Below are positions 26,198-55,333 of a DNA stretch of 64,000 bases, piece after piece; position 1 is the stretch's first letter, and every line of letters begins with the position of its first letter. The notes beneath the pieces were generated by a model. It was not told where the DNA came from, made no database searches, and saw only the letters and a program-made list of their open reading frames with translations. The position numbers and the translations under genes are program-made. Source of the stretch: Acidimicrobiales bacterium (GTDB lineage: Bacteria > Actinomycetota > Acidimicrobiia > Acidimicrobiales > Aldehydirespiratoraceae); assembly GCA_029263195.1 (NCBI GenBank), contig JAJCXX010000068.1, positions 40,939 to 104,938 on the forward strand, in the 5' to 3' direction.

Positions 26198-27081
26198 TTG
26201 TCGAACACCCTTTCGGGTTCGGGCAAGCGCATGATGGCGCCGGCCCAGAGCCAACAGACAACGACCAGTGCGAGCGCCATCATCACGACTGCCTGTCCGG
26301 TTGACGTTCGGTAGGCGTCTCGGCCGTTGCCGATGGACATGCCCGCCATCGCCATTCCGGCCGGCACTATCAGCACGAACATTCGAGCGAATCGAGCCCC
26401 GGCCTGTCTCGATCGTGCGTCCTTGCGCCCTTGGACGTCTTGTCGGCGATCCTGAGCGAGAGCGTCGAGGCGACGGTCGAGGTCGCTGCCGCCGAGTTCG
26501 TGGGCGATCAGCAACGTCTCGCAGGTCATGTCGGCCGTGGGGTCGGCGAGTTGGTCCTTCAGCACCTGGAGCGAGCGGCTGAGGTCGGTGGTGAGCAGCC
26601 ATTCACGTTGGGCCGCCTCGAACGCCGGCCGAAGTTCCTCGGGCCCGCGACTGCCAACCTCGAAGAGCGATCGCGGAATCGATCGGCCCAGCGAACTGGT
26701 CTGGACTCGAATCTCTTCGATCATCCGAGGCCATGCTTCCTGCGCTCGGCGGCGACGCTCGTGTCGGCGTCGGCGGTAGGAGTCGACAGGAAATGTGGCT
26801 GCGAACACGCCGGCTGCCAGCGCGGGCACCAGTCCGCCGAACGCTGCGTATGTGACGATGGCAGCAAGAGCAAACAGGATCGCCACGACGGCGGCGAATT
26901 CGCGGGGGTCGACATCGCCGAGTCCGGCCTGGGTGAGCCACGATTCGAGGTCGACTCGGGGCCGCGGTCGCCTCTCGGCGAGGGCAGGTCCCAGCCCGGG
27001 TCCCCGCCACCCCAGCATGATCGATGTGTATGCGTACCATGCGCCGATCGCGGCGAGCAGGGCCAGCAATACCGGTGTCAT
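26194..27081 (-). CDS. tadB: Tad secretion inner-membrane protein TadB (T2SS-F domain)
   Basis: The ATG at 27081 overlaps the stop codon of the tadA fragment (ATGA). Protein starts MTPVLLALLAAIGAWYAY and has the topology typical of TadB. Confidence 0.75.
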   Translation of the reverse strand: MTPVLLALLAAIGAWYAYTSIMLGWRGPGLGPALAERRPRPRVDLESWLTQAGLGDVDPREFAAVVAILFALAAIVTYAAFGGLVPALAAGVFAATFPVDSYRRRRHERRRRAQEAWPRMIEEIRVQTSSLGRSIPRSLFEVGSRGPEELRPAFEAAQREWLLTTDLSRSLQVLKDQLADPTADMTCETLLIAHELGGSDLDRRLDALAQDRRQDVQGRKDARSRQAGARFARMFVLIVPAGMAMAGMSIGNGRDAYRTSTGQAVVMMALALVVVCWLWAGAIMRLPEPERVFDK

Positions 27082-28114
27082 CGGACGCGATCCATGGCGA
27101 GAATGTCGCGAATGTCGAGGCCGAATTCCTCGAAGGCCCGGGCCGTGCGCTGCGGGATGCTGCCGGTGGAGGTCAGCGGTGCATCGCGTCCCGGTCTGGT
27201 GAAGACGTTGGTCATGGTGAACTGGGCACTTTCGAGAGAGGCGCTGAGCTCCTCCACACACGCGATGGTGTTGACACGCGGGCCTTCGGGTGTGCGAATG
27301 CAGTGGACTACTACATCGATTGCTTCGGAGACGAGATTGTTGAGTGCAGACATGGGCAGTTCGTTGCCGGTGTCGGCCAATTGGCTGATGAACCGGAGAC
27401 GGGTGAGTGCCTGGCGGGCTGATCCGGCGTGGATCGTCGTGAAGCCCTTCACTCCGGACGACAAGGTAAGCAGTAGAGGTAGTGCCTCGCGATCGCGAAC
27501 CTCGCCGACGATTGCGATGTCGGGGGCCATGCGGAGGAAGCCGGCGACAAGATGGCGAAGGCTGATCTCAGGTCGGTCGGAGCGGCTCGCACGTGTCTGC
27601 ATGCTTGCGACGTTGGGTAGCGGAATGTCGGCCTCGAAGACCTCTTCGGCGACAACAACTCGCAGAGCCGGATCGAGCTCGGCGGCACAGCAGTTGAGCA
27701 TCGTTGTCTTGCCCGATCCTGGCGCGCCCGCGAAGAGGATTGTTTGGCGTGCCTCTACGCATGACCGCAGGAACGTGGCCGCCTGATCGGTGAGAGTTCC
27801 GATATCGACGAGTTCGTCGAGGCTGCGAAAGGCGACGCCGGTGAACTTCCGAATGTTGACCATCAGGTGCCCGCCGCGGGCGATATCGCCGTGAACTATG
27901 TGGATCCTGGCGCCATCGTCGAGCTGGGCATCCTGCAAACCTTCGCTGGGGTCAAGCTTGCGGTGAGCGCTCGCGGCATCGTCGAGAATCTTGGTGAGAA
28001 TCCGGAAGACGTGTTCGTCGTCGTGGAACACCTCGTCGTGGTAGCCGCTCGTCCCCTTGTGGCGTTTGACGAACACGGCATCCGGAGCGTTGATCATGAT
28101 CTCCCAGACGTCGT
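27078..28114 (-). pseudogene. tadA: tadA/cpaF secretion ATPase, C-terminal fragment (about 345 codons; N-terminus displaced 27 kb away)
   Basis: Homology begins abruptly at DVWEIMINAPDAVFVKRHKG. Walker A GAPGSGKTT and Walker B-like VVAEEVF present. An in-frame TGA lies 9 codons upstream of DVWE; the only start is the internal ATG at 28097. Confidence 0.85.
28100..28114. repeat. 15-bp direct repeat, left copy (putative att core)
   Basis: TCTCCCAGACGTCGT, identical to 55057-55071 and in the same orientation. Encodes the DVWE of tadA on the minus strand. Confidence 0.9.
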
Positions 28115-28529
28115 AGTTCTGAGCTATTTGCGCTGGTCAGAGGGCTGGGTTTCCGTTTCGTGCCACTTGCGTGCCAGTAGCAGAGGGGAGTGACGGGGTG
28201 CAGCGGGCAGCACCGAGTTGGGTGTGGCCGTTTTGGGCAGTGGGGGAGCTGAGTACGCTTTGTCCCGGGTGGTCATGTTCGACGGTGCTTGCGGTATCTC
28301 GGTTAAGCGCAGCCCGGGAGATAGATAGAGAGATCTGGCGGATATTGCGGAGCGATCCAGCATCGCCAATATCGAGCAATGCAATTGGGCCGGAGTCGAG
28401 TGGCGGATGTGTCTCGGCGGTCGAAATTCTGGGCGGCGAAATGCTGCGGTCTCGGCCAAGCTTCGGGCGGCTGCTTGAGAAGCGCGGTAACTCAGCGAGC
28501 CGACGTCGCGTTAGGTCCCCTCGGTGGCC

Positions 28530-29207
28530 TCAGGCTAGAACGGCTTGGACCGCGGCGAGGACGTTGTGGTGATCGCCGTCAGGGTGTCGCACGAGCACTC
28601 CGTGCATGCCTGCGTCTTCGGCTCCGCGCTTGTCGGCGGTCGGATTGTCTCCAATCATCCAAGCCGTGCTGGGCTCGAAGCCACGGCAAGCGATGCCGAA
28701 CGCTTCGGCGTGTGGCTTTTCGTAGCCGATCAGCGCAGATGTGAACACCTTGTCCACGTAGCCATCAAGTCCGAGCTCGGAGGTGATCGCCACAAGCTCC
28801 GGGACGTGGTTGGACAAGATCACGACAGGAACCCCCGCGGTCCGTAGTTCCTGCATTGCCTCTACGACGTCGGGATACAGATGGAACCGCGACGCGTCGC
28901 AAAAGTGGGAGCGGACGCCATCGCGAAGACTCTCGAGCTCCTCGATCTCGGCCCCGACTGCCAAATAGGAGCGGTCGATGAGCTCACCGAACATGCGCCA
29001 CCAATCATTGGCGCTACGAATCTGCGTGTGCGGAGTTTCGGGCTGATGCCAAGGGAAGCCGTCTCGCAGCTGCGAGCGGAGATCGCCGATCGTGACACCA
29101 TGACGTGGTCGTTGCGAGTCGAAGACATCGAGCAGGCACTGGGACCACATTCCCGGGCGATAAGCAAGGGTTCCATCGAAGTCAAAGACCACCAATTCCA
29201 CACTCAT
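28530..29207 (-). CDS. HAD-superfamily hydrolase
   Basis: Motif I VVFDFDGTLA, motif II ILSN, C-terminal GDNPTAD. Confidence 0.8.
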   Translation of the reverse strand: MSVELVVFDFDGTLAYRPGMWSQCLLDVFDSQRPRHGVTIGDLRSQLRDGFPWHQPETPHTQIRSANDWWRMFGELIDRSYLAVGAEIEELESLRDGVRSHFCDASRFHLYPDVVEAMQELRTAGVPVVILSNHVPELVAITSELGLDGYVDKVFTSALIGYEKPHAEAFGIACRGFEPSTAWMIGDNPTADKRGAEDAGMHGVLVRHPDGDHHNVLAAVQAVLA

Positions 29208-29448
29208 GGCCAGCTTGGCCCGTCAGTCACGAGTGCTCTCCCGGCTTATTCGCATCTGCCCAAGAGTAGTCAGCAACGCGACCCCTTCATGGAGAGTTGT
29301 GCCGCCACCGAACTCGCCCATCGCTTTGGGCCCGAGTACCGACGACAACCAACCGAGGGGTTCGCGGCGGAGGCGAGCCGCACCATAGAAGCCGCTCGGA
29401 AGTCACGAGCCCAATGGTGAGATCAGATGCCGCAGAACCGGCGAAGTA

Positions 29449-29737
29449 GGTCGGGTCGGGACGGGGCGAACCCGCTCGATAATCACGCAGGTCTCGGTCC
29501 CGACCGTTCGACGGACGTGCCTCCCGCCGCTCATCCGTGCATCGACCGAACGTCTACAACCTTGGCCTTGGGTAGCCGAGGGAACCTTCCCTCGACCGAA
29601 CACCTATTCGAGTGTCGGAGGGGCGTTTGCGACCCTAAACCATCACCCCACGCGCTCCGAATGGATGGATCTCACAGCGGCCTGAGAAGTCCATTTCCCC
29701 TGGTCAAGACACCACGACCGAGTTTCCGGCCCCCACA
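29449..29737 (+). mobile_element. MITE-like derivative (~290 bp) of the IS481-like element; right IR intact, left end degenerate
   Basis: The reverse complement of 29698-29737 reads TGTGGGGGCCGGAAACTCGGTCGTGGTGTCTTGACCAGGG. 29629-29729 is about 70% identical by eye to 41897-41996. The left end near 29475 (CTCGATAATCACGCAGGTCT) resembles CTCGAAATCAGCATGTCT at 40488. Confidence 0.45.
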
Positions 29738-29762
29738 GCCAACACCGCGGCGATCAACATGC

Positions 29763-31562
29763 CTACATCGACTCGACTGAGAAGCCAGCCACGCCTGCCG
29801 CGTTGATGACTAGGTCAGACAGCTTGACCTGTCTCTGCTGGATCTTGTTCCCGAATGCAGTGCCCTGAACGAATCGTGGTGCTGAGATTGCCAACTCCTC
29901 GGATGCTCGCGTAACGCCGACGAACAATTGGCGGATGCCGTCGCCCGGGTTGGTCCGTCCAGTGAATGCCTCTGTGATGGCTCCGACGAGGAAGACAATC
30001 GGCGCTTCCAGCCCTTTCGAGCTGTGGATGGTGTGCACCTCAATGACCGGCACGGCCGCGTCCGGCTCTGCGACTTCCTCGTGTGCCTCATCTTCCTCGT
30101 CGGGGAGAGCGAGAAGTAGGCGTGCGATGTTGATTTCGTAGCCGAGAGTATTGGCGACGTCAACACAGAGTTCGCGAAGCTCAGTCGGAGTCCATCTCGA
30201 GTCAACTGGCGTAGCCGCTTCGATCAAGTCGGCTGATCTAACTACGCGGGCGACAGTTGTGTCGTTGGGGGCTACCGACCGGAGGCGCGCAGCGAAGTCG
30301 ACACCGGCCGCTGCAAGCACTTTCTCCTTCCGTCCATCGGCGAATCCAGGGCACGCCTCGACGAGGCTGCGCCACGCCATCTGATGAGCTATGTCACGAG
30401 TCAGCCGGACGACGGATTCGACAAGAATCTCCTCCACGGCGGGATCAGGAGCGCCGGGGCGGCCGCTGATGAAGGGCACATCGGTCAGCGGCTCCGCGTA
30501 CGTCTTCAGTCCATCGAGGACCGCGTCACGGTTTGTCGCTGCGACAACCATGATCTCGCTTGGGCTACGTCCCCTAGAAAACAACGCAGCAATGCGTCGT
30601 CCGACCCACTCGTGTTCAGCCTTGAGCGACTTTGCGGACACGATGGTCACTATTCCTGGCGGACGGTCATCATCCCACGGATGAAGCTCTGGACGGCCGA
30701 GCCCGGGAATCGCTGGAAGTGCTGACGCGATGGCGTTGGCTAACGTGCACATCGCGGCAGGCAAACGGCGCGACCGGAAGAGAGAGTCGATGTCGTCGAT
30801 ATCGTAGGCGGCTGCAAACCGGTGCAAGGCGAGTGGGTCGGCTGCGCGGAATCCGTAGATCGACTGCCGGTCATCGCCGCAGGCGTTGATCCGGGTGCCG
30901 TGGGTTTCCGCCAGCATCTGAAGAAGCCGCAGCTCGCCTGCAGTCAGGTCTTGGTACTCGTCAACCAACATCACTGCCGGAGCGTCGTTCAGCTGTTCGC
31001 CAATCGCGATGAGCTGCGAAAGGTCGTAGACCAACTCATCGAACAAGGCGTAGCCGAAGATTTGCCGGTGTCCGTGGAGAACCTGCAGCAGCCGTTGCTC
31101 CTTCGAAGACAGGTCAGGTGGCTCCGCCTGGTTGCGAGAGAAGTTCTCGCCCATCCGGCGCAGAAAATCGCGCACCTCCTTCAGTGTGCACGTCTCTTCG
31201 GGAAAGGCGGTCCCGTATCCCAGCTTCAGGTCATCCGGAATGATCCGACGCTGTTCCCAGGGCGAAGCCACGTTCTTCCCCCAGGCGTCTCCTAGTCGGT
31301 TGAGATGCTTCAGGGAAAACGAGTGGAAGGTTGAGGCCTCGCCGTGAGCGATGCGTTCCCGGAGACTTGCTGCCATCGCGTTGGTGAGCGTTACCAGTGC
31401 GATACTCGCGGGATCGACACCGTGTTCGACTAGGTATTCGCTCCGTCGCTCCAGTACCCAGGTCTTCCCGGTTCCCGGCCCAGCAGCGAGAAGAGCGTGC
31501 TCGTCTGGGCCACGCCGGATGAAATTGTCTTGTTCGGGCAGCGGGCTGATCTCGTCGGTCAT
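29763..31562 (-). CDS. UvrD/Rep-like superfamily 1 helicase
   Basis: Walker A GPGTGKTW, motif II DEYQDL, motif III GDDRQSIYGFR, C-terminal motifs TIHSSKGLE and VGVTRA. Confidence 0.85.
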   Translation of the reverse strand: MTDEISPLPEQDNFIRRGPDEHALLAAGPGTGKTWVLERRSEYLVEHGVDPASIALVTLTNAMAASLRERIAHGEASTFHSFSLKHLNRLGDAWGKNVASPWEQRRIIPDDLKLGYGTAFPEETCTLKEVRDFLRRMGENFSRNQAEPPDLSSKEQRLLQVLHGHRQIFGYALFDELVYDLSQLIAIGEQLNDAPAVMLVDEYQDLTAGELRLLQMLAETHGTRINACGDDRQSIYGFRAADPLALHRFAAAYDIDDIDSLFRSRRLPAAMCTLANAIASALPAIPGLGRPELHPWDDDRPPGIVTIVSAKSLKAEHEWVGRRIAALFSRGRSPSEIMVVAATNRDAVLDGLKTYAEPLTDVPFISGRPGAPDPAVEEILVESVVRLTRDIAHQMAWRSLVEACPGFADGRKEKVLAAAGVDFAARLRSVAPNDTTVARVVRSADLIEAATPVDSRWTPTELRELCVDVANTLGYEINIARLLLALPDEEDEAHEEVAEPDAAVPVIEVHTIHSSKGLEAPIVFLVGAITEAFTGRTNPGDGIRQLFVGVTRASEELAISAPRFVQGTAFGNKIQQRQVKLSDLVINAAGVAGFSVESM

Positions 31563-31898: not shown

Positions 31899-34800
31899 GT
31901 GACAGAGAAGCTGGCATACGAGAAGTTCGAAGACCGGGTGGCTGCCGCCTATCGGCGGATGGGGTACCGGGTGACCCAAGATGAGCTTGTCTCGGGCAAC
32001 CAGATTGACGTCGTGGCGCGGCGCTCCGATCGTGAGTTGGCGACAACCGTGATCGTCGAAGCCAAGTCTCATGAGAGTGCTCGGTCCAAGACGGGGAAGG
32101 GACAGGTGCTCGACTTTCTGAAGGTCGCAGAGGCCCTGCTTCGAAGTGGTGCCTGCAGTCACGCATCGATGGTCACCAACACCGGGTACACGCGGCTCTG
32201 CAAGCAAGTCGTAGAACACGACGCCCGAATCAACCTCCTCTCGATTGATCAGATAGAGGCGCAAGAGCAGGCAAACACCTCCTACCTCGCCCGTCAGCTG
32301 TCCAACTACCGAACGAGTCAGATAGCGAATGTCTTCGTCGACCTCGAGGTTTCTCCTGAGGCTGACTACCCGGCATCTGTAGGGGCGCCTGGTCTTGTAT
32401 CAGACTTGATGACAGCGGCCATCAGAGCTGGGCGTTCACCAATAGTCATCACTGCCGACTTCGGCGGAGGTAAGTCGACAATTGTCGACCACCTCTTCTT
32501 TGAGACCCTGTCAACGTACCTGGACAATGAGTCCGGCTACTTGCCGCTCAGATTTCCCCTCAAGGATTTACCGAAGTTCCAGAGCCTTGGTGCGTTTGTG
32601 AGCGACAGCGCCAAGAATGAGTTGGGTATCCCATTTGACCTCGGTGACGTCCTCGAACTCGCGAAGGCTGGCGACTTGGCAGTGTTTCTCGACGGATTCG
32701 ACGAGATCTCGTCGACCGCAACAGCCAAGGAGCGCGGCCAATTCCTACTTCGGTTGGCGCCGCTGCTGTACACCGACAGCCCTACCTTCTTGACGACTCG
32801 GCCCTCCTATTTCGAGAGCGGGAGGGAAATGGAACGCCTGCTCCGGCGAGTTCGACAGGGACGAAGCTCGCGGACCAAGACGGCATTGAAGGACTCCGAT
32901 CGTGTTCTTGGAGACGACGGCTCGCTGATCGTCGCTCAGCTCCGTTCGAGTCGATCACATGAGGTAGATGCCGCGTTTGCTGAGGCCCCGCTCGCCCGGG
33001 TCCGGATAGAGCCGATGCGGCCTTCTGACATTACGCGGTACGTGGAAAAGTTCGAAAGTACCTGGTCAAGCCTTGGGTTCTCGTCCGAGGACGTAGATAG
33101 GTTCCTGGACGAGACCTACGACTTGTCCGACCTGACGACACGGCCGCTGCTCCTCTCGATGATTGTGGAGATCCTCCGAGACGGTTGGGTGAACCCGACG
33201 AACGCAGACGCAACTCTTGGTCCCGCAAAGCTGTATGCGATCTATGTTCGAGCCCGCCTCGGTATCGAGGATGACAAGCGGGGAGATCCGGATTCTCTGG
33301 ACGAGGCCGCCCGCCACAAGTTCGCCGAGTTGAGCGCGATGAGAATGCTCCACGACAACCGTCTGTCGATCGCGCCCAAGCTCGCTCGGGAGTTTGCGTT
33401 GGCGGTCGCGGCGCCGCGAACCGATCTGTCTCCGGATCAGCGGAAGCTCCGGCTCGAAGGCCACCTCACCGACCTGCGCACCTGTTCCTTCCTGACGACC
33501 GGGCCCGACGGCGACCTCCTGTTCGTCCATCGATCCTTTCAGGAGTACTTTGCCGCGAGACACCTTGCGGGGTGTCTACTGGAGGACGATCTGTCGGAGT
33601 TTGGTGCTCTACTCCCAGAGCAGGTTGCCTACTTCCTCGGCGCCATCGCGTTTGAGGATTTGGAGTGTCGTACCGCCATCGAGCGGGCCCTCCGTCGCCA
33701 GGGCGGCCGGGGTGCCTCGAGGGCCGCGGAACGGTCGTCTCAGAACGGAAACTTGCTCGCCGCTATGGCATATGCCGGCCTCGTTGCCGAGAAACTCGAA
33801 ATCGTCGATTCGCTGCTACCGCCGATCCGGAAACGGGATGTCAGGTTTCTTAGCTGCCAGATCGGGACTATTGAGCTCACGTCCGTGACCGACGCTGCTA
33901 TGGAGCTCCACGACTCTCGTCTCGAAGGCGTGATCCGCGTGATCGGTGGCACACTCCGCAGTATCGACGCCGACAGCCTGGTCGGCGGCGGGATCGTAGA
34001 CTTGGGCTGTGAACTCGAAGAGGTTCTCAGATCGACTAACTCTGATTTCAACCTTCAGCTTCGAGTTGGCGGCAAAGGCGAGCCAATCGAACTCCTGCAC
34101 GCCCGATCGTCGGGCCTCACGGTGTCATCGCCAGGTGGCCGAGGCATCGTCGCCATTGTGGCTGAGGATGAGAGCTGCTGCTCGCTAGCCGACCTCAGGG
34201 TCGAGAGGGTTGAGGTCTGCGACTCGTACGTGGCTGTCGATCGAACCGTCGAGGTCACGGAGGTTTCGGCCAAGCGCTCGACCATCGATCTGGCCAGCTC
34301 CTCAGCCAAAGGCCGCACTGTCGTTGATATTGAGAACTCATTGGTCCTCCTGGGCTGGGGCTGGCTCTCTCCTGACGAGATGCGACTCCGAGGCGTGGAT
34401 CGGTCGCTGTCGGAGCCGAGTCGCCTCGCTCTGTCGGGGGACATCCGGAACTGTGTTGTTCTGGTTAACCCCCTCGCGAACCTCAAGGACCTGGCGGGGC
34501 TGGAGCTCACGGAGAGTCAAGTCTTCTGGGGCTCGCTGAGCGCGCCCCAGCCGAAATCTCGAGCGGAGGCCCGCAAGCGGTTCGCCTCGCAGTTGGAACG
34601 TTGGGGCTCAACCACTAGTGGCATCTTCGTGAAGGTTGAGTCGGCCGTTCACCCAGCCGTCAAAGAAGCGCTCGAATTGGCGGAGCCAGGGACGCTAATG
34701 GAGGTGTATGACGGGACTGCACTTGCGGACGGGCGGCTCGCCAGTGACTGGCAGGCGCTCACCGCAACCCACGGGATTGATCAACTCCTTAAGTTCGCCG

Positions 34801-34925: not shown

Positions 34926-34944
34926 AAAATATGAGCGGCCGGCA

Positions 34945-35114
34945 GTGGAGGTGGTGGAACCCCTCGCGTCGCACGGCAGCCGCGAGTGCGTTAGCGGTAC
35001 TTCCCGGACTTTCGCTCCCCATAGATAGAGAGGCGAACTGAGCATGGTGAACACCCTTCAGCAGCACCTCTCGGAACCACACATCAGGGTGTCAACCAAA
35101 CCGGGTCAGCTTCA
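34945..35114 (+). mobile_element. IS3-family right-end scar
   Basis: 35089-35114 GTGTCAACCAAACCGGGTCAGCTTCA matches 22 of 26 bp of the right IR of the intact IS3 copy (41741-41766). It is preceded by a WWNPSRR...LSLPIDRE stretch resembling the YNxxR...SP tail of OrfB. Confidence 0.55.
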
Positions 35115-45120: not shown

Positions 45121-45127
45121 GCGCCGC

Positions 45128-46318: not shown

Positions 46319-46514
46319 ACGGCATCGCAACGATTTCGGTTCCAGGCCTTACGTCGCTGTGGTGGTGCAGTATTGGTCCACAGCACGGAGGATGGCATTG
46401 ATTCGTGCGTCTCGACGGTAGACGATGCCGCTTTCTCCATCGATCGCACAGTTGTAGAACAGTGCGACGGAGGTGTTGCGGTCGTGTGGGGGCCGAATAT
46501 TGTGTCGTGGCTGG

Positions 46515-46658
46515 TCATGCTGCGTTTTGGTGTTCGTTGATGAGGCCGTGGCAGCGGGTTGATTTCACGACCCGAAGATGGCGCCCCTGCACTGGCGGCG
46601 GCGCCTCGGGAGCCTCAGGTGGTTGTTGGTCGAGTGAGCGGTGGGGTCGGTGCTGGTT
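46515..46658 (-). pseudogene. IS481-like transposase, C-terminal 47 codons (continuation across the nested IS110)
   Basis: NQHRPHRSLDQQPPEAPEA...VVKSTRCHGLINEHQNAA*. Joins in frame to ...FDFLWRY at 48101. Confidence 0.65.
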
Positions 46659-46861
46659 GTAGGGCCATGAGAATGGTGGCGGGCGCCTCGGTGCTCGGGC
46701 GGTTACGTTCGTAGTCACCGGGTTCGGGGCTTCCTGGGAGGACAATGGTTGGGCAGGCCGAGACTTTCACTATGGGCTTCGAGCCCGTTGTTGTAGCTGG
46801 CCGCCCCTGCGACTGGCCCGGTTGTGCTGCGAGCACGTATCCGTAGTTGTCGTTCGCCCGG

Positions 46862-46888
46862 CTTCTCCCTCACTGATGAAGGGAGAAG
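46862..46888 (+). promoter_or_regulatory. Hairpin sequestering the Shine-Dalgarno sequence of the IS110b transposase
   Basis: CTTCTCCCT (46862-46870), a 9-nt loop, then AGGGAGAAG (46880-46888). The ATG is at 46892. Confidence 0.5.
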
Positions 46889-46891
46889 GCA

Positions 46892-48091: not shown

Positions 48092-48100
48092 CTTTCATCC

Positions 48101-48967
48101 GTAGCGCCAGAGGAAGTCGAACAGCCGACGGAGTTGGCGTTGATTCCAGATCAGCGTGCGGTCGTGCAGTTCGTGGCGGACGGTGCGGATCCATCGCTCA
48201 GCGAACGCGTTTGCTCAAGGAGCGCCAGGTGGGACGGTGATGACCGAGCCGCCGATGCCGGCGAGGACATCATCGAATGATCGGGCGTATTTGCCGGCGC
48301 CGTCGCGGATCACGAACCTGATGGCTTTGTCGTGGCCTATAAGCAGGTTCCGGGCAGCTTGGGTGGTCCGGTTGCCGGTGGGGTTGGTGGTGATCCTGGC
48401 GAGGTGCACGCGTCGAGTCTCGATCTCGATGAGGAACAGCACATGGGAGCGATGCAGAGCAACGGCGTTAGCGCAGAAGAAGTCGGTCGCGACCAAGGCA
48501 TGGGAATGGCTGGCAATGAACTCGCTCCACGAGGGTCCGCCGCTGCGGTTTGGGGTGGGTTCACGTCCGGCCTCTCGCAGGATCTTCCACACTGACGACG
48601 CGGCGATGCGGTGTCCGAGACGGCACATCTCACCGTGCATACGCCGGTACCCCAAGTTTGGGTTCTCAGTATCGGGCCGCAGCACTAGCCGGCGGAGCTC
48701 GGCTGATTTGGGTGGCCGTCCCGTTCTGGGCACAGGTGGTTGGGTCCGGTGGCGCGCGACGTGACGTCGATGCCAGCCGATCACCGTCGCCGGCTTCATG
48801 ATCAACATGGCCTGGCTCAGTCGTCGGGGATCGAATGCCCGCGAGAGCACGGCCAGGATCGTCCGATCCGTCGGTGTGAATCTAGGGCGGTCAATCTGGC
48901 GCTGCACCACCAGGACCTGATGGCGAATAGCGAGGATCTCCGCGTCGCGCTTGTCGCCGGACACCAA
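48101..48967 (-). pseudogene. IS481-like transposase, N-terminal and catalytic part, with an in-frame TGA
   Basis: DKRDAEILAIRHQ, GYRRMHGEM, rve core. TGA at 48215-48217 falls inside ...PPGAP*ANAFAERWIRTVRHELHDRTLIWNQRQLRRLFDFLWRY. The frame is then cut by the IS110 insertion. Confidence 0.75.
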
Positions 48968-49323
48968 GAGCAGCCTGAGGGTGCCGGAAACTCATCCGTG
49001 TACTCTGGCCTGGCGTTTCGCGGGATGCGAGTCGGGAAACGGCGGTGTCGGAAGAGTTCTAGATATCTGATCCACTGACATAAGACATGCTGAATTCGAG
49101 GCACGACGGGGTATTCGGCCCCCACACCCCACACCCCACATCCCCGGCCCAACTTCGTGATCGGCGTCGATGGGTCATCGTCGTACGAGAGAGCAAGTGA
49201 CCCACAGCGTGCTATGGTCGAACGTACGTACGCTTGATAGTGGCCTGATCCAACGCCTCGGTGTCGCACCTCGGTGTCAGACTCAGAGCCTCCGAGCGAT
49301 TCTCTAGCCGTAGGAGCAGGAAC

Positions 49324-49461: not shown

Positions 49462-49467
49462 TCTATC

Positions 49468-51276
49468 TTGCAAGCTTGGTGGGATAGGTGGCCGGGGCGG
49501 CGGGAAGCGGAGCTGGATTCGTTCCGGCGTAACGGTCTCGCTTTCGCGGAGGACGCGGACGCGATAGCCGCCGGACGGCTCGTGTTGCAGGGTGCGGTCG
49601 TGGTCGGGGGTGAGGCCGAGCCCGTCAAGCTTGTGGTCCACTACCCCTACCACTATCCATGGACGAGGTTCGAAGTTGCAGCGCCAGAGCTCGACCTGCC
49701 GCGCCATCAGCACCCGTTTGGGAAGAATCTCTGCGTCTTCCCTCGCGGAAGTGAGCATTGGCGCAGAGACTGGCTTGCCGGAGACGTGATTGCCGCGCGA
49801 GTGCCGGAGTTGATTCGTGCTGTTCGCGAGGGAGGCGAAACACTTCTCGCCGTTGAAGAGCCTCAGGGGGAGCCGTACACGGACTACTACGATTTCCGTC
49901 CGCTCGGCGGGATCCTCGTTCCGGCTGAAATCCTTCACGCTGCGTCTGGTATCGACGGCGGTGAATGCACCGTCCGCCTGGCCGACTCTGTCGAGTGGCT
50001 CGGGCTTCTCTCTGGAGCAAGCATCAGCGATCTAGATCTGCCACCGATAGGCACCGGGGCTGTCACAGTCCTTCGCCGCGACAACCAGACGCTCGCCACT
50101 GCACCCGATGAGCTTGTCGCCGGCCTGGCAGGACCTAGCCTGTCCTGCGTCTGGAAGCGCCTTGCCGCACCTCCGGTGGCGAAAGATGCGGCCGAGTTCT
50201 TGGACGCTTTCGTGGCCCAAGGCGGGCGGACGCCGCACACGATGTCCTGGCATGGGCGAGGCCCGGCAATCGCACTGGTTGGCCTGGTCTTCCCTGAAGA
50301 AGTCCGTCAGGGTGAGTATGCGGACGCGTGGGTCTTTGTCGTGCTGGGCAAGCGAGCCAAGGGACGACCGCCGAAACCGAAGGCCGGCGAAGAGGAGCGA
50401 CCCGGTCACCGCATCTCAGCGGGGTTGGTGCGTGGCATGCGCTGTGGTGTTGCCGACCTGTTGGAGCGAATTCCCGAGCTCGCGGCGCTGCGGGACAAGC
50501 GTGTTCTCGTTGCCGGACTGGGGAGCCTCGGAGCGCCACTTGCTAAGGAACTTGCGCGCAACCTCGTGCAAGAGCTGAGAATCATCGATCATGACTTTGT
50601 CGATGCTGGAACGGTCGTGCGATGGGAGACGGGTCTGCGCGCCGCCGGCGTGTCGAAGGCGCTGTTCCTCGCGCTCGAGTTCCAGCTGAACTACCCGTAC
50701 ACGAGGGTAGTTCCCTCGGGCGCAGTTATCGGAGCGGCGGCCCAAGGAACTTCCGACGATGATCTGGACGTTCTCACCGAATTCCTTGCTGATGTTGATC
50801 TGGTCATCGACGCAACGGCAGAGGACAATGTGACTGCCGCGCTGGCGGACTGCGCCCAGATGGTCGGGGTGCCGATGCTTGCCATCTGGAGCATTGAAGG
50901 CGTCGGCGGAGTCGTTGGCCGCATCGTGCCGGGAGAGACCGGATGCTTCCACTGCTTGGAGCTGCACTTGAGCCCAGACCACGGGGGGAGTATTCCTGTG
51001 CCCGCACCGCCGACCGACCAGCGTCGCGTGCAGGCCCGCGGTTGTGCAGACCCGACTTTCACCGCGTCAGCTGTGGATCTACTGCCCCTGGTACACCATG
51101 GAGCGCGGCTCGCCTTCGGTGAGCTATGCCGCGGGACTCGTGATGGCTACCCGAGGTATGAGCGCGATGTCCACGTGCTGTCGTTGCGACGTCCGGACGG
51201 TGCCTTGTTCGAGCCGCCTGAGTGGGGATCTTTCGAACTCTCTGTTCATCCGGACTGTCCGTGCCACGACGACTGA
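49468..51276 (+). CDS. E2(UBC-like)-E1(ThiF/MoeB-like) fusion protein, Cap2-like
   Basis: N-terminal HQHPFGKNLCVF resembles the E2 HPN...Cys loop. C-terminal half has the Rossmann motif VLVAGLGSLGAPLAKEL...IIDHDFVD and Cys pairs CFHC ... CPC. The 602-aa size and domain order match CBASS Cap2. Confidence 0.7.
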   Translation: MQAWWDRWPGRREAELDSFRRNGLAFAEDADAIAAGRLVLQGAVVVGGEAEPVKLVVHYPYHYPWTRFEVAAPELDLPRHQHPFGKNLCVFPRGSEHWRRDWLAGDVIAARVPELIRAVREGGETLLAVEEPQGEPYTDYYDFRPLGGILVPAEILHAASGIDGGECTVRLADSVEWLGLLSGASISDLDLPPIGTGAVTVLRRDNQTLATAPDELVAGLAGPSLSCVWKRLAAPPVAKDAAEFLDAFVAQGGRTPHTMSWHGRGPAIALVGLVFPEEVRQGEYADAWVFVVLGKRAKGRPPKPKAGEEERPGHRISAGLVRGMRCGVADLLERIPELAALRDKRVLVAGLGSLGAPLAKELARNLVQELRIIDHDFVDAGTVVRWETGLRAAGVSKALFLALEFQLNYPYTRVVPSGAVIGAAAQGTSDDDLDVLTEFLADVDLVIDATAEDNVTAALADCAQMVGVPMLAIWSIEGVGGVVGRIVPGETGCFHCLELHLSPDHGGSIPVPAPPTDQRRVQARGCADPTFTASAVDLLPLVHHGARLAFGELCRGTRDGYPRYERDVHVLSLRRPDGALFEPPEWGSFELSVHPDCPCHDD

Positions 51277-51734
51277 CCGTCTACATCGAGCGAGTCGATT
51301 GGGCAACGCTGGTCGGCGAAGCTGTGCGGACGCTGCCGCTGGAGACCGGTGGCATCGTCATGGGTCGATGGCTCGACTCCACTGCGGCGCGGATCACCGA
51401 TGTCATAGGACCGGGGCCAGACGCAAAGCACGAACCGAGATCGTTCGATCCCGATCAGGACTGGCAGGAGAGCGAGGTCGCCCGGATTTGGACGTCGAGG
51501 GCTGGGGACGTCGAGTATCTGGGCGACTGGCACACACATCCAGATGGACGGGCGTACCCAAGCCGTGGAGACTCCAAGGCGGCAGAGTTGATCGCTTCCT
51601 CTTCCGAGGCGGGAGCGGAGCGACCAATCATCATGATCGTTGCTGTCTCCCCGAAAGGGTCGATGAAGGCACGGGTGCACGTGTGGATTGGCAAGCGTTT
51701 CAGCCGGGCGAGGCTCGTTGTCCGTTGGACATGA
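51261..51734 (+). CDS. JAB/JAMM (MPN+) isopeptidase, Cap3-like
   Basis: LETGGIVMG (Glu) and GDWHTHPDGRAYPSRGDS (HxH...SxxD). GTG at 51261 overlaps the end of the E2-E1 gene by 16 nt. Confidence 0.78.
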   Translation: MPRRLTVYIERVDWATLVGEAVRTLPLETGGIVMGRWLDSTAARITDVIGPGPDAKHEPRSFDPDQDWQESEVARIWTSRAGDVEYLGDWHTHPDGRAYPSRGDSKAAELIASSSEAGAERPIIMIVAVSPKGSMKARVHVWIGKRFSRARLVVRWT

Positions 51735-51802
51735 TCGAGAGGCTGAAGGCACCTTTTCGTTGATCGATCGACTGGCGCAGCTTGCTGGGTTGGGGTCGAG
51801 GT

Positions 51803-52614
51803 GGCACCGTTGTGTTGGTCAATCGGTTGGCGCGGCTCACGTGGCTGGTGTCGGTGTCCGGTCGGATCACCTCGGCAAGTTCGTCGAAGGCTGCCGCGAC
51901 GCGTAGACGGTCGTGGCGGGCTTCGGCGCCGAGTTCGTAGCGACCGCGTCGAACGTTCTGCATGAACGCGTGGCCACGAATCGCGACCGACGCGGTCCGG
52001 TCGGTTCGCAGACCTTGCATCGGCCGGAGTCTTGCTTTGGTCTGCCGTGGTCGTTGCCGATCCGGTTGTCGAATACTGCTCGGTGTCGTGCACTACGTCA
52101 GGGATCATCTCATCGATCACCCGAAGCAAGGGTGCAGCCAGATCGGTGGTGGCCTCAATCGGCCGCCCGTGGTTGCTCATGGCGTTCGCAAAGAATCTCC
52201 TGGCGGCAGCGATGTGACGCTTCTTCGACACGTACACGTCGATGACCTGGCCGTGCCGGTCAACAGCCCGGTACACACGTAACGCCAAACGCCGTTGACC
52301 TCGGCGAAAGTCTCGTCCACGAATCACCGGTCACCCACCACGTGACGGCACGGCCGGGCCGCGTCGATCAGAAGCGGTGTAAACCTGCCCTTCGACTTGC
52401 ACTACGGCTGGTTCGTCGCACCGATAGACCTCCGGCGAGGGCACATCGTGGAGTTCGGGCGACAGGCTGCAAGCGTATTCGGCTGGGCGGCTAAGGCGAG
52501 CCTGAGCTGGATGCTGGATGTGGCCCGCTATACGCAGATTGCGCTCGGTAGGAGATCTATGGCTAGTGTCTCCCACAGTCCGAGACAGGATTGGCGGGCG
52601 AGCAAGCGCGTGCC
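51803..52614 (-). pseudogene. IS6-family element (812 bp) with a decayed transposase
   Basis: Terminus GGCACCGTTGTGTTGG at 51803 and an imperfect inverted match ending at 52614. Transposase pieces lie in three frames: GDR*FVDETFAEVNGVWRYV (TGA where Trp is expected), YRAVDRHGQVIDVYVSKKRHIAAARRFF...HDTEQY, and MQGLRT...AIRGHAFMQNVRRGRYELG. Confidence 0.7.
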
Positions 52615-52637
52615 AGATCGACCTAGACACGAGAACC

Positions 52638-53975
52638 ATGGCACTGGCGGAACATATTGCGAATCTGCTTGAGTATCGGCGGACCCTCTTGGAGGAGGAG
52701 TTCGAGATCCGTCAAGGCCTCAATCGCGCACTTGAAGTAGTCGTGCTCGGCACTGGCGACTGGGTCGCGAGATACCGCGAGAACTTCGGCGATTATGCCG
52801 CAACATTCGGGAACCTGATAGTCACGTACGTTGACACAGCTCCCAGCATGCCGGATGACCAATATCGAAAACCATGGGCCAAGCGATTGCACGATCACGA
52901 CGACGATGTCAACGAAGTTGACCAGACGCCCGGCCTGATCGAGGTTGTGATGGCGGATTGGTGTGTCTCATGCATGGACGACATCGCAACGCTGAACCCC
53001 GATGTCGTGCTAGTTGCCACCCCCGACAAGACCCATACAGTCCAGGCCGCTAGGTGGATCGGGAGCGATGTCGCTCCTGCGCCGACACCGCTGGTGATCA
53101 TCGAGAAACCGTTGGCGACCGAAGTGGCGCAGATCGACGAGCTTGAGTCGGCACTAGCGATGTCGCCTACGCCCGTTGCCGTTCGTGGGATGGACCACTA
53201 CCTAGCACGAGCCCATGGGATTCTGGGGATCACGGACACTTTGTCCGGACATATCCAGGAAGTGGCTGAAATCCACTTCCATATGTGGGAGGATGACCCC
53301 ATCGAGCCCGAGCGGCTCCCGAGCCTCCAGACCGGCATCACCTATGATATGGCGTCACACTTCTTTGGTATCCTCACTCTGGTTGCAGGCGACGACTTGC
53401 CTGGAGGCATCGTTGTGAAGGCGGCCGGACAGCACGTGCCGCTCGTTTCAGACAGCACCTTTGGAGTCCCCGAGGACTTCGACGCCGAAACCTACTCGGA
53501 CATAGGTTTCGACATGGTAGTGCCCTTCCAGGGCCGAACAATTTGGTGCGAGTCGCATGTCGGGAAGGGTCAGCCGCGAGAGGTTAAGTGTCTCGACATC
53601 GTGGATCCTGAGGGAAGTCTTGTTCGTTTGGACTACACGCGGGGAGTCTCGTACCGCGTCGAGGCAGTCGATACGACGTTCGACGACGGCTGTCTCGTCA
53701 TGTGTCGCGAAGCTCACACTGATGGCGGGACTCCGTGTCCTCATCACCTACGTCATCTACAAGAACTGCCTGACGTCGACGTGTTCGAGCGCCTTGCACC
53801 CTTTGAGTACGCCGATGTGTTGCGGGCGGCGGCAGGGGGCGAGAATGAGGTACTTGGTACGTTGATACCGACGTCTGATTCGAAGTGGGTCGTGGGCTCA
53901 CTTGAATCGATGCGGACGGCGCTAGCAGACGCACGCGCCAATTGGACGAATCACCCTGTGGGAGAGTTGCCATGA
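52638..53975 (+). CDS. Gfo/Idh/MocA-like Rossmann-fold oxidoreductase homologue
   Basis: VVVLGTGDWVA, VLVATPDKTHTVQAARWI and VIIEKPLA (the family's EKP motif). ATG at 52638 is preferred because the longer ORF would overlap the IS6 end. Confidence 0.55.
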   Translation: MALAEHIANLLEYRRTLLEEEFEIRQGLNRALEVVVLGTGDWVARYRENFGDYAATFGNLIVTYVDTAPSMPDDQYRKPWAKRLHDHDDDVNEVDQTPGLIEVVMADWCVSCMDDIATLNPDVVLVATPDKTHTVQAARWIGSDVAPAPTPLVIIEKPLATEVAQIDELESALAMSPTPVAVRGMDHYLARAHGILGITDTLSGHIQEVAEIHFHMWEDDPIEPERLPSLQTGITYDMASHFFGILTLVAGDDLPGGIVVKAAGQHVPLVSDSTFGVPEDFDAETYSDIGFDMVVPFQGRTIWCESHVGKGQPREVKCLDIVDPEGSLVRLDYTRGVSYRVEAVDTTFDDGCLVMCREAHTDGGTPCPHHLRHLQELPDVDVFERLAPFEYADVLRAAAGGENEVLGTLIPTSDSKWVVGSLESMRTALADARANWTNHPVGELP

Positions 53976-54838
53976 CTGTCATTGACATCACGGAAGATAA
54001 CTCAATTTCGAAGGGTTCTGGCCGACAGGCGGTAAGTGCGCCCAGACACAACCGAGGCAATAACATGCCGGCGAGAGTAAACCGCGGTCTAGCGTGGTCC
54101 GACGGGAGCTTCCCTCTCCCTCCCGACGAGTCGCCGACGTTACGCGAACTCTTCCATCTCCTTCGGCGCGAGGTCGGCTTCACGAGACTCACGATTCTCG
54201 TTGATTCGTGGGATACGGAGCGGTCGATCGATCTTATAGACCGGATTCTTGAGTACGAAGAGCCAAGCGGGGGCGAGTTCGTGTTCTTGCTCCGATCGCA
54301 GGGTGGGCCTTCCGGCAGCCTGCCCGCCGGTCTGGCCTCACGAGAGGGCGTCCTTGTTCTCGACGAGAAGCGACGCTCTCACCAGATCCGGCTTGAGCAT
54401 TCATCAGTCAACGTACTCCTGTTCGACGGCAGCCGGAGCGTGCCGACCGAGGAACTTAAGGGGTTCGCTGATCGGACCAATGTTGTGCTTGTAGAGGGCG
54501 CCGGCCCAAGCTCCAAAGATCTTGTCCATGCGCTCGATGGGCTCTCGCTCACTACTCTCCTCTGCAGCCGCTACTCAGGAAAGACCTGGCGGTGTTTTGT
54601 GAATGAGGAGCGGGGAGAAGATCTCGTTCCATGCCTGACGCGTCATGTTCAGCGAATGGATCGGAGCCTCATGGAAGACGGAGAGCACGAGCAGATCGCA
54701 GTCGACTACCAGAACTGGCTACGCGCAGCGGTAGCTGGTGGCCTCGAGACAGAGACTGCAGCCACAGCCAAGTCCGCTGTGCAGAGATTTCTCTCAGCGC
54801 GCATCGGTGACGAGCGTACGGAGAGACTTCTTACCTAA
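53972..54838 (+). CDS. Hypothetical protein (288 aa)
   Basis: ATG overlaps the upstream stop (ATGA), suggesting coupling. No motif I can name. Confidence 0.45.
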   Translation: MTVIDITEDNSISKGSGRQAVSAPRHNRGNNMPARVNRGLAWSDGSFPLPPDESPTLRELFHLLRREVGFTRLTILVDSWDTERSIDLIDRILEYEEPSGGEFVFLLRSQGGPSGSLPAGLASREGVLVLDEKRRSHQIRLEHSSVNVLLFDGSRSVPTEELKGFADRTNVVLVEGAGPSSKDLVHALDGLSLTTLLCSRYSGKTWRCFVNEERGEDLVPCLTRHVQRMDRSLMEDGEHEQIAVDYQNWLRAAVAGGLETETAATAKSAVQRFLSARIGDERTERLLT

Positions 54839-54878
54839 GGGGGGACTATTGCCCGCAGGAAGTGTCCGTGAGGTGACC

Positions 54879-55056
54879 TGTGGGGGCCGGAAACTCGGCC
54901 GTGCTCTTGACCAGAACGTTCGCGATGGTGCGATCGGCTCCGTGGGCGGGTTCGGGTCGTGCCACAGCCGTGCCACTCAGGCGCCCCGAATTCATCGAAA
55001 GGCTGTCTCAAGATCTCAGTTTCCGTGTCATCTCGCGGCACTGAACGTGACGAGGC
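54879..55056 (-). mobile_element. IS481-like terminal remnant abutting the right island junction
   Basis: TGTGGGGGCCGGAAACTCGGCCGTGCTCTTGACCAG at 54879 (+), closest to the IR at 29737. The minus strand shows weak transposase-tail similarity (ANVLVKST versus RVVKST in copy B). Confidence 0.45.
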
Positions 55057-55071
55057 TCTCCCAGACGTCGT
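55057..55071. repeat. 15-bp direct repeat, right copy (putative att core)
   Basis: TCTCCCAGACGTCGT, identical to 28100-28114. Confidence 0.9.
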
Positions 55072-55333
55072 CGTCTTCGAGGAGTGGGGCCAGTGGCCCG
55101 TAGCCGGTGAGGTTGCGCATGGCCCGCTCGGCGACCGTGTCGGGGTCGTCGATCGGATACGGCCTCAGTCCCCGCATGTGATCGTTGTTCCAGCTCGATA
55201 TCTCGACGGCCACCAAGTTGGTCAACGCGTCGAGAGCGCCGCCGTCGTCGAGGTCGAGTGAGCTGGCCTTGGCGCGTTCCTGCACCACACGCTCGATGTG
55301 CTCGAGAGGGGTGAGGAGGGCGGCCGAGGTCAT
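55057..55333 (-). pseudogene. tadA: tadA/cpaF secretion ATPase, N-terminal fragment (87 native codons, then a 9-codon island-derived tail ending at 55028)
   Basis: MTSAALLTPLEHIERVV...RNLTGYGPLAPLLEDDDVWE, followed by non-homologous SLVTFSAAR*. The start overlaps the tadZ stop (ATGA). Confidence 0.85.

What the first reader, a model, noticed from the sequence alone, without database searches (positions are those of the whole stretch)
27078..55333. The Tad pilus ATPase gene tadA/cpaF is split by a 26.9-kb island flanked by a perfect 15-bp direct repeat
The 101-aa minus-strand ORF at 55028-55333 ends its homologous part with ...GYGPLAPLLEDDDVWE. The 339-aa minus-strand ORF at 27078-28097 is preceded in frame by ...DVWE and continues IMINAPDAVFVKR. 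Joined, they give GPLAPLLEDDDVWEIMINAPDAVFV, the canonical CpaF/TadA N-domain junction (GPLxPLLxDxxVxEIxxNxP). TCTCCCAGACGTCGT occurs at 28100-28114 and 55057-55071 in direct orientation, with the copies 26,957 bp apart. So a mobile island appears to have integrated inside tadA and probably inactivated an otherwise complete cpaB-tadZ-tadA-tadB-tadC-pilin-tadE/G operon. I can recognise no tyrosine or serine recombinase in the island, so the integration mechanism is open. The only start available to the C-terminal fragment is the internal ATG at 28097.
Basis: partly seen in the sequence, partly recalled or inferred. Interest (0 to 1): 0.8.

Follow-up and report, generated by a model that had tools for sequence, protein, structure and literature searches.

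The report
Integrase-less island splits tadA pilus gene
A 26.9-kb genomic island carrying defence and lipid-synthesis genes sits precisely inside the Tad-pilus ATPase gene of an Acidimicrobiales bacterium; related genomes show that tyrosine-integrase elements target this exact spot, and this copy has lost its integrase, so it is a well-documented but ordinary decayed integrative island.

Summary
TCTCCCAGACGTCGT occurs only at 28100-28114 and 55057-55071. The two tadA pieces join into a 432-aa TadA that is 100% identical to an uninterrupted protein in a sibling metagenome. That contig (L082) carries one copy of the 15-mer and flanks that are 99.96-100% identical, so it is a precise empty site. 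An independent Logan assembly reproduces the left junction, and its graph break shows that occupied and empty alleles coexist in one sample.

The mechanism is no longer open. Two other Acidimicrobiia contigs (L091, L092) have tadA broken at the same codons. In both, a lambda/L5-type tyrosine integrase gene starts about 140 nt inside the junction. About 50 nt upstream of its ATG lies the module TGGCACGnnnGTGGCACG. The window carries this module in the same place, 20/20 identical to L092, and again on the other arm. Only 43 nt follow it before a 37-bp solo IS end and then cargo. No integrase remnant exists anywhere in the 64 kb.

The island is therefore an integrase-less, IS-riddled derivative of a family of elements that target tadA. 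It is a new member of a known kind and of moderate interest.

The parts
27078..28114 (-). tadA/cpaF C-terminal part. Homology to intact TadA starts at 28114. The only usable start is ATG 28097, giving 339 aa with the whole T2SSE ATPase domain.
28100..28114 (.). Left copy of the 15-bp core (attL): TCTCCCAGACGTCGT.
   Evidence: present as a single copy in the empty site L082
28115..55056 (.). The inserted island, 26,942 bp between the two core copies. It is absent from the near-identical empty-site contig L082.
28148..28178 (+). Left-arm module GGGTTTCCGTTTCGTGCCACTTGCGTGCCAG: two CGTGCCA(C/G) boxes 11 bp apart, 35 nt from the core. Candidate integrase arm-type site.
   Evidence: no such module in 1.28 Mb of related loci
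28115..28529 (.). 415-bp non-coding left arm. It shows no recombinase remnant and no unusual RNA structure.
28530..29207 (-). HAD-family hydrolase (cargo).
29628..29738 (.). 110-bp end fragment of the rve-type 'TGTGGGGGCC' IS. Its tip is at 29737 and its body is truncated.
29763..31562 (-). UvrD/GajB-like helicase (defence-type cargo).
31899..34925 (+). 1008-aa Mrr_cat nuclease plus NACHT/STAND NTPase (defence-type cargo).
35087..35114 (.). Solo IS3 inverted repeat next to the 5'-truncated ketosynthase. It marks an earlier IS-associated deletion.
   Evidence: (I6, D15)
35324..40364 (+). Lipid/polyketide-type gene cluster: truncated KS, a 256-aa unknown protein, a beta-lactamase-fold protein, an SDR, a small ACP-like ORF and a KS.
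40461..43423 (.). IS nest: a short deletion derivative of the rve-type IS (40461 to about 42000) that carries a complete IS3 (40510-41766, perfect 26-nt IRs), followed by IS110-family gene A (42197-43423, minus strand).
43534..46318 (+). Putative secreted serine protease (GDSGGP motif) and a lipoprotein-like ORF. Neither has a Pfam match.
46485..49127 (.). Fuller copy of the rve-type IS, interrupted by IS110-family gene B (46892-48091, plus strand).
49468..51734 (+). Cap2-like E2/E1 protein (ThiF) and Cap3-like JAB isopeptidase. No CD-NTase is present.
51455..52327 (-). IS6/IS240-type transposase fragment.
52518..54838 (+). Gfo/Idh/MocA-like oxidoreductase (485 aa) and a 298-aa unknown protein. 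They are cargo, not recombinases.
54878..54914 (.). 37-bp solo end of the rve-type IS, with its tip at 54879. It occupies the place where relatives have the integrase start codon and marks the deletion that removed the integrase.
54915..55056 (-). 142-bp remnant of the right arm. In relatives this is the region between the junction and the integrase gene.
54947..54977 (+). Right-arm module CGGGTTCGGGTCGTGCCACAGCCGTGCCACT. Its reverse complement TGGCACGGCTGTGGCACGAC is 20/20 identical to L092, and the equivalent module in L091 lies about 50 nt upstream of the integrase ATG.
55018..55055 (+). Weaker third copy of the module (GTTTCCGT..CGCGGCAC..CGTGACGA) abutting the core.
   Evidence: sequence inspection; not statistically tested
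55057..55071 (.). Right copy of the 15-bp core (attR).
55057..55333 (-). tadA N-terminal part (92 aa). The ORF runs on into the island to a stop at 55028.

Best explanation
The island is a decayed, integrase-less member of a family of integrative elements that use a lambda/L5-type tyrosine integrase. These elements insert by conservative site-specific recombination into one conserved stretch of tadA, the codons for DDDVWE(IM). Recombination between an attP carrying ACGACGTCTGGGAGA and the identical tadA sequence left one core copy at each end and split the gene. Excision would restore the gene exactly. The paired CGTGCCAC boxes near both ends are most likely arm-type binding sites for the integrase's N-terminal domain; the right-arm pair may also act as the integrase operator. 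In this copy the integrase gene, which should start about 50 nt beyond the right-arm module and read away from the tadA N-fragment, has been deleted together with most of an rve-type IS. Only a 37-bp IS end remains. The island can therefore no longer move on its own. Shown: the precise insertion, the empty allele, the same target in relatives that carry an integrase, the shared module, and the absence of any integrase. Inferred: that the boxes bind integrase, that the deletion was IS-associated, and when it happened.
For: Core and empty site. An independent assembly reproduces the left junction, and the occupied and empty alleles coexist. Contigs L081 and L090 from SRR15505515 overlap by exactly k-1 = 30 nt at the core boundary, and Logan's k = 31 is stated in PMC12424806. 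Truncated TadA N-fragments P0233 and P0236 end at the same codons. Their contigs L091 and L092 carry a tyrosine integrase about 140 nt past the junction: PF26003/PF00589, and PF00589 at 3e-17. The two integrases are 74% identical to each other and about 31% identical over their full length to mycobacteriophage tyrosine integrases. The module TGGCACGnnnGTGGCACG lies about 50 nt upstream of the ATG in both loci and is 20/20 identical between L092 and the window. It has 0 hits in 1.28 Mb of related loci but occurs at both ends of the island. In the window 43 nt follow the module, then comes the IS end 54878-54914, which matches 29700-29738 at 90%. No integrase-like sequence was found in any frame of the 64 kb. 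A solo IS3 IR beside a truncated KS is further evidence of IS-associated deletion inside the island.
Against: The link to L091 and L092 rests on the shared target site, the shared orientation and an 18-20-nt module. It does not rest on extended DNA homology: the 81 nt between core and module differ, and L091/L092 keep a longer tadA-like stretch after the core. The far ends of the relatives were not recovered, so arm sites on their other arm are unverified. No attP junction was seen: L081 runs through the core into tadA. Binding of the boxes by integrase is inferred. The right junction has no independent assembly. How near-identical strains differ in occupancy without a resident integrase is unexplained; trans-acting integrase, replacement of the allele by homologous recombination, or very recent integrase loss are all possible.
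Confidence: 0.8

Rival explanations
1. The island is a non-autonomous element (CIME or satellite type). It was already integrase-less when it entered this tadA and is inserted and excised in trans by the integrase of a related resident element.
For: No integrase is present, yet occupied and empty alleles with 99.96-100% identical flanks coexist. The arm modules are intact on both arms. The many IS insertions suggest that decay predates such a recent insertion.
Against: No related integrase lies in the 64 kb. No attP branch appears in the Logan graph. The coexistence is equally well explained by two lineages or by allele replacement.
Confidence: 0.12
2. The island was inserted by transposition: a DDE transposase (for example the rve-type 'TGT...' IS, or a composite of its copies) or a casposase made a 15-bp target-site duplication.
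For: 15 bp falls within the direct-repeat range that I recall for the IS481 family and for casposons (from memory, not checked here). Several IS copies are present.
Against: The termini are not inverted repeats. The IS ends lie 178 and 1,623 bp inside the island and point the wrong way. There is no Cas1. The same tadA site is used by integrase-bearing elements in other genomes.
Confidence: 0.03
3. One of the two IS110-family DEDD recombinases inserted the whole island by RNA-guided (bridge RNA) recombination.
For: Two IS110-family genes lie in the island. IS110 elements lack terminal inverted repeats.
Against: Both genes lie 14-19 kb from the ends, nested in other IS copies. Their non-coding flanks show no complementarity to attB or attP beyond shuffled controls. 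No Rfam family matches. IS110 insertion duplicates about 2 nt, not 15 (from established knowledge).
Confidence: 0.02
4. The split tadA is an assembly artefact: a chimeric join at a 15-bp repeat.
For: The window probably comes from a metagenome assembly. The right junction has no independent contig.
Against: Logan contig L081 from another assembly crosses the left junction at 100% identity. The contig breaks fall exactly at the core boundary, as expected for real attL and attB alleles. The same site is interrupted in other genomes. The 15-mer is too short to mislead a k=31 or long-read assembler at both ends at once.
Confidence: 0.02

Closest known systems
Integrative elements and prophages of Actinobacteria with lambda/L5-type tyrosine integrases (arm-binding N-domain plus catalytic domain), including AICE/ICE-type genomic islands
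   Same: The attB core is duplicated at both ends. Relatives have the integrase gene next to one att site. Short repeated boxes lie on both arms. Insertion is orientation-specific, into one conserved sequence.
   Different: The target is the interior of a protein-coding gene and is not repaired by the element. This copy has no integrase, no excisionase and no conjugation or phage genes. Its cargo is defence and lipid genes plus five IS-derived segments.
CIMEs (cis-mobilisable elements): islands flanked by att sites that have lost their recombination and transfer modules (from established knowledge of the ICESt1/ICESt3 family)
   Same: The island is bounded by intact att-type repeats, lacks an integrase, and appears to derive from an integrase-bearing family.
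   Different: Mobilisation in trans has not been shown here. No partner element was seen.
Gene-interrupting excisable elements: B. subtilis skin in sigK, the Anabaena nifD (11-bp repeat, XisA) and hupL (16-bp repeat, XisC) elements, and the Listeria comK prophage ('active lysogeny')
   Same: A large element lies inside a functional gene and is flanked by a direct repeat of similar length. Removing it restores the reading frame exactly, and the joined protein is 100% identical to the intact allele.
   Different: Those elements keep their recombinase and excise on cue. Here the recombinase is gone, and nothing shows regulated excision.
DDE composite transposons and casposons
   Same: The direct repeat is 15 bp long, and IS copies are present.
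   Different: There are no terminal inverted repeats at the junctions, no Cas1, and the site is reused across genomes.

Membership tests
Tyrosine-integrase integrative element / genomic island | Insertion at a specific attB, with the core sequence present once in the empty site and at both ends of the element | tested here: met
Tyrosine-integrase integrative element / genomic island | The element encodes a tyrosine integrase next to an att site | tested here: not met
   None found in the window. Present at the equivalent place in relatives L091 and L092. In the window the position is occupied by a 37-bp IS end.
Tyrosine-integrase integrative element / genomic island | The same target site is used by independent family members | tested here: met
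   P0233/L091 and P0236/L092 break tadA at the same codons
Tyrosine-integrase integrative element / genomic island | Arm-type binding sites on both arms of attP | tested here: inconclusive
   The paired boxes occur on both arms in the window and upstream of the integrase gene in L091/L092, and are absent from 1.28 Mb of background. Binding was not tested, and the far arms of the relatives were not recovered.
Tyrosine-integrase integrative element / genomic island | Excision to a circular attP form with restoration of attB | tested here: inconclusive
   An attB allele coexists with attL in SRR15505515. No attP branch is present in that graph.
ICE / AICE (conjugative) | Conjugation or replication module (relaxase, T4SS or FtsK-like translocase, Rep) | tested here: not met
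   None among the island ORFs. Relative L091 has ArdC-N/MPTase and SSB only.
CIME-type decayed element | Flanked by att repeats, without recombination or transfer genes, and derived from an integrase-bearing family | tested here: met
CIME-type decayed element | Mobilised in trans by a related element | not testable with these tools
   Needs the complete genome and experiments.
DDE transposon / composite transposon | Terminal inverted repeats at the junctions and a cognate transposase | tested here: not met
   The ends are not inverted repeats. The IS ends are internal and face inward.
Casposon | Cas1 integrase, terminal inverted repeats and a 14-15-bp target-site duplication | tested here: not met
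   Only the repeat length fits. There is no Cas1 and no TIR.
IS110 / bridge-RNA element | The DEDD recombinase lies at the element end with a guide RNA complementary to the target and donor | tested here: not met
   The genes are internal. There is no complementarity above shuffled controls and no Rfam hit. This was a simple k-mer test, not a full bridge-RNA model.
Regulatory-switch / developmentally excised element | Excision restores the interrupted gene in frame | tested here: met
   The joined fragments equal P0001 at 100%.
Regulatory-switch / developmentally excised element | Resident recombinase and regulated excision | tested here: not met
   No recombinase is present. Regulation cannot be tested here.

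The most novel reading that the evidence does not exclude
In Acidimicrobiia, tadA is a dedicated landing site for a family of integrase elements, and for at least one further kind of island. These elements act as reversible on/off switches for the Tad pilus, which is an adhesin and a likely phage receptor, while delivering defence genes. In this population the integrase-less island would still be flipped in and out by an integrase supplied in trans. That would explain why occupied and empty alleles with virtually identical flanks coexist in one sample.
Probability: 0.15. Interest if true: 0.6.

Novelty: new member of a known kind. Interest (0 to 1): 0.38.

Why it matters
The finding turns a puzzle (a large island inside an essential pilus gene with no recombinase) into a documented case of a known process, followed by decay of the element. 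It also identifies a conserved stretch of tadA/cpaF as a recurrent integration site in uncultured Acidimicrobiia. I found no literature on this. It provides a candidate integrase, its probable arm-site motif and a natural pair of occupied and empty alleles. These would let someone test whether insertion into tadA is used to switch off Tad pili, for adhesion or phage-receptor loss, while importing defence genes. For annotation, it shows that the 101-aa and 339-aa ORFs are halves of one gene and should be marked as disrupted.

Tried and rejected
(1) Integrase remnant at the left end. The 111-aa ORF 28124-28459 ends in LLARKWH, which resembles the tail LLARLWH of a truncated integrase in metagenome hit L084. 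The resemblance is confined to the motif. Acidobacterial integrases encode LARIWH as protein. A family HMM finds nothing in the window. Pfam finds nothing even at E<=10. Rejected as coincidence.

(2) IS110 bridge-RNA guidance. There is no complementarity between the IS110 flanks and attB/attP above shuffled controls.

(3) Structured RNA in the 415-bp left arm. The z-scores are +0.86 and +0.38, and Rfam finds only the tmRNA.

(4) Terminal inverted repeats or extended similarity between the two ends. Nothing was found beyond the core and the module.

(5) A composite transposon bounded by the 'TGTGGGGGCC' IS ends. The tips face inward and lie 178 and 1,623 bp from the junctions.

(6) The right-end ORFs as novel recombinases. 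The 485-aa protein has the Gfo/Idh/MocA Rossmann and EKP signature. The 298-aa protein has no hits. Neither resembles a recombinase. No structure was predicted.

(7) att-motif and integrase scans of viral contigs gave no hits.

(8) Exact-protein look-ups for the window's own fragment ORFs and right-end genes were not on record, so the source record could not be named.
Full report
1. Observation

The 15-mer TCTCCCAGACGTCGT occurs exactly twice in the 64-kb window, at 28100-28114 and 55057-55071. Both copies are on the same strand, and none is expected in shuffled sequence (sequence). On the minus strand the ORF 55028-55333 encodes the TadA N-terminus up to ...GPLAPLLEDDDVWE and then runs into SLVTFSAAR*. 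The frame leading into ORF 27078-28097 reads ..NYDVWEIMINAPDAVFVKR.., with ATG 28097 as the first available start. The window has about 62% G+C and contains one tmRNA. The genes around the two fragments are a Tad operon: SAF/CpaB-like, TadZ-like ATPase, two T2SSF proteins, and TadE/Tad-like pseudopilins.

2. The empty site exists

The joined 432-aa protein matched uninterrupted TadA in 474 loci of Acidimicrobiales genomes. The best, L001, is 95% identical. A reconstructed empty site aligns to L001 without gaps across the junction. The exact 15-mer is present once in 18 other loci.

A protein search then returned P0001, a 432-aa TadA that is 100% identical to the joined fragments. Its contig L082 comes from Logan sample SRR15505514 and is 6,008 bp long. 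It matches window 55779-55057 at 100% and 28114-22815 at 99.96%. The two SNPs lie 4.2 kb from the junction. The 15-mer is the only overlap between the two matches. This is a precise attB in a virtually identical strain, so removing the island would restore tadA exactly.

3. The junction is not an assembly artefact, and both alleles coexist

Logan contig L081 from SRR15505515 is 100% identical to window 29498-28085 and therefore crosses the left junction. Contig L090 from the same sample starts exactly at the first base of the core, 28114. L081 and L090 overlap by exactly 30 nt.

Logan contigs are built on 31-mers (PMC12424806). The break is therefore a graph node whose second incoming path must share the core plus tadA-C sequence but differ just upstream. 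The intact allele fits this. Had a circular attP junction been present at appreciable coverage, L081 would have stopped at the end of the core. It does not. The graph reasoning is my inference. The right junction has no independent contig.

4. Contents of the island (28115-55056)

Pfam, NCBIfam and PADLOC scans gave the following:
- a HAD hydrolase;
- a GajB-like UvrD helicase;
- a 1008-aa Mrr_cat plus NACHT protein;
- a lipid-type cluster: a 5'-truncated KS, a beta-lactamase-fold protein, an SDR, an ACP-like ORF and a KS;
- a secreted protease-like protein and a lipoprotein-like protein;
- a Cap2-like E2/E1 protein and a Cap3-like JAB, without a CD-NTase;
- a Gfo/Idh/MocA-like oxidoreductase and a 298-aa unknown protein.

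Five IS-derived segments are interspersed:
- a complete IS3, 40510-41766, with perfect 26-nt IRs;
- two IS110-family genes;
- an IS6 fragment;
- several copies and fragments of an rve-type IS with 'TGTGGGGGCC' ends;
- a solo IS3 IR beside the truncated KS.

No tyrosine or serine recombinase was found.

5. The ends

The ends are not inverted repeats and share nothing except the core. Both carry the module GGGTT(n4-7)CGTGCCACnnnCGTGCCA, in the same orientation, at 28148-28178 and 54947-54977. These are the only exact matches in the window. The module is two 8-bp boxes spaced one helical turn apart. A weaker third copy abuts the right core.

A metagenome scan with the module gave seven short contigs against about four expected by chance (my estimate). 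Two have the module 60-80 nt from tRNA genes. One, L084, looked like an integrase 3' end, and this suggested an integrase remnant at the window's left end. That lead failed for four reasons. The resemblance is limited to the motif. The Acidobacterial family encodes it as protein. Its HMM finds nothing in the window. Pfam finds nothing in the left-end ORF even at E<=10.

6. The decisive comparison

A search with the 92-aa N-fragment returned other short TadA N-fragments. Two of them end at the same place as in the window: P0233 (..DDDVWEVIIKSFATCNY) and P0236 (..DDDVWDVIIKYLLTCSH). They lie on contigs L091 and L092, from two JGI metagenomes. On both contigs the order is cpaB, tadZ, tadA N-fragment, then about 140 nt, then a tyrosine integrase on the same strand.
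- The L091 integrase is 377 aa, with PF26003 plus PF00589.
- The L092 integrase is 412 aa, with PF00589 at 3e-17.
- The two are 74% identical to each other.
- They are about 31% identical over their full length to mycobacteriophage tyrosine integrases.

Homology of these contigs to intact tadA ends 0-12 nt beyond the window's core. The same 15-25-bp stretch of tadA is therefore the target in all three cases.

Between the junction and the integrase gene, both contigs carry TGGCACGnnnGTGGCACG, the reverse complement of the window's module, with an extra inverted box in front. It ends about 50 nt before the ATG. The L092 version is 20/20 identical to the window's. The module has no hit in 1.28 Mb of related loci with intact tadA.

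In the window the module sits in the corresponding place, 81 nt inside the N-fragment junction. Only 43 nt follow it. Then comes a 37-bp end of the rve-type IS (54878-54914, 90% identical to the copy at 29700-29738). After a further 39 nt comes the stop codon of the convergent 298-aa cargo gene. tblastn and an HMM built from the two integrases find nothing in any frame of the window.

7. Interpretation

Shown:
- a precise, site-specific insertion with a 15-bp core;
- an empty allele;
- the same target used by integrase-bearing relatives;
- a shared module next to the integrase gene that also occurs on the island's other arm;
- complete absence of an integrase from the island.

Inferred:
- the island entered tadA by tyrosine-integrase recombination between attP and attB;
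- the boxes are arm-type sites (and possibly an operator) for the integrase's arm-binding N-domain;
- the integrase gene was lost in a deletion that also removed most of an IS copy.

The island is therefore best described as a decayed, CIME-like derivative of an integrative element.

I cannot say when the integrase was lost. I also cannot say how two lineages with 99.96-100% identical flanks come to differ in occupancy. Recent integration followed by loss, trans-mobilisation, and replacement of the allele by homologous recombination all fit the data.

Inactivation of the Tad system is likely. The 92-aa N-domain is separated from the ATPase domain, which has only an internal start. This was not tested.

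8. Rivals

- DDE transposition or a casposon-type event fits only the repeat length.
- IS110/bridge-RNA guidance has no support.
- An assembly chimera is contradicted.
- A genuinely new recombinase among the unknown ORFs cannot be formally excluded. It is unnecessary, and the ORFs nearest the ends look like metabolic or defence cargo.

9. Comparison and novelty

In mechanism this is a lambda/L5-type integrative island. In its current state it resembles CIMEs. In topology it resembles gene-interrupting elements such as skin in sigK, the nifD and hupL elements, and the comK prophage. That last comparison is from my own knowledge. Unlike those elements it has no resident recombinase and no evidence of regulated excision.

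Using tadA as an attB appears to be undescribed: a full-text search for attB plus cpaF gave nothing relevant. A second, different insertion lies 18 nt upstream in L093 and L094 and carries a restriction-modification-type methylase. This suggests that tadA is a hotspot in this clade.

Overall this is a new member of a known kind. The open mechanism is largely resolved, and the interest is moderate.

Noticed in passing
L093:10001-10551 and L094:10001-13277: A second, different insertion in tadA lies 18 nt upstream of the window's core; the protein ends ..GPLAPLLG*. It occurs in two other Acidimicrobiia contigs, and in L094 an 892-aa N6_Mtase/Eco57I-like gene follows it. L094 comes from the same JGI sample as L091. 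tadA may be an insertion hotspot.
   Followed up: partly
window 57481-57708 (+): A 75-aa HTH_17 (excisionase/MerR-like) gene lies upstream of cpaB. It is a conserved host gene, with tblastn hits in 68 loci that have intact tadA. It is not part of the island and is possibly a Tad regulator.
   Followed up: partly
L087:779-806 and L089:175-204: The same GGGTT..CGTGCCACnnnCGTGCCA module lies 60-80 nt from tRNA-Phe and tRNA-Met genes in unrelated short metagenome contigs. L089 has five phased boxes. These may be att arms of related elements at tRNA sites, but the contigs are too short to decide.
   Followed up: partly
window 49468-51734: A Cap2-like E2/E1 protein and a Cap3-like JAB gene pair have no CD-NTase. 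An IS remnant (48997-49127) lies directly upstream and an IS6 fragment downstream. This may be a truncated CBASS-type or other ubiquitin-like defence module.
   Followed up: no
window 40461-42000 and 46485-49127: Nested IS copies: a complete IS3 sits inside a roughly 290-bp deletion derivative of the rve-type 'TGTGGGGGCC' element, and an IS110-family gene sits inside a fuller copy of the same element.
   Followed up: partly
window 21292-23640 (+): A 782-aa ORF next to the Tad genes contains internal tandem repeats of about 560 bp (21587-23302, 72-75% identity). It may be a repetitive surface protein.
   Followed up: no
window 17132-17697: A tmRNA gene (17307-17697, minus strand, tag ANTDDLALAA) has a 129-nt imperfect palindrome (17132-17260) beside it.
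   Followed up: no
L084 and proteins P0121-P0231: The Acidobacterial 'integrases' related to the L084 ORF are all short C-terminal fragments (80-237 aa) in the protein collection. In L084 the reading frame runs through a tRNA-Leu 3' end.
   Followed up: no
L091:9317-14962: The integrase-bearing relative carries different cargo: a trypsin-like peptidase, SLFN_AlbA_2 plus HATPase_c_4, ArdC-N plus MPTase-PolyVal, and SSB. Only the integration module and the target appear to be shared within the family.
   Followed up: partly
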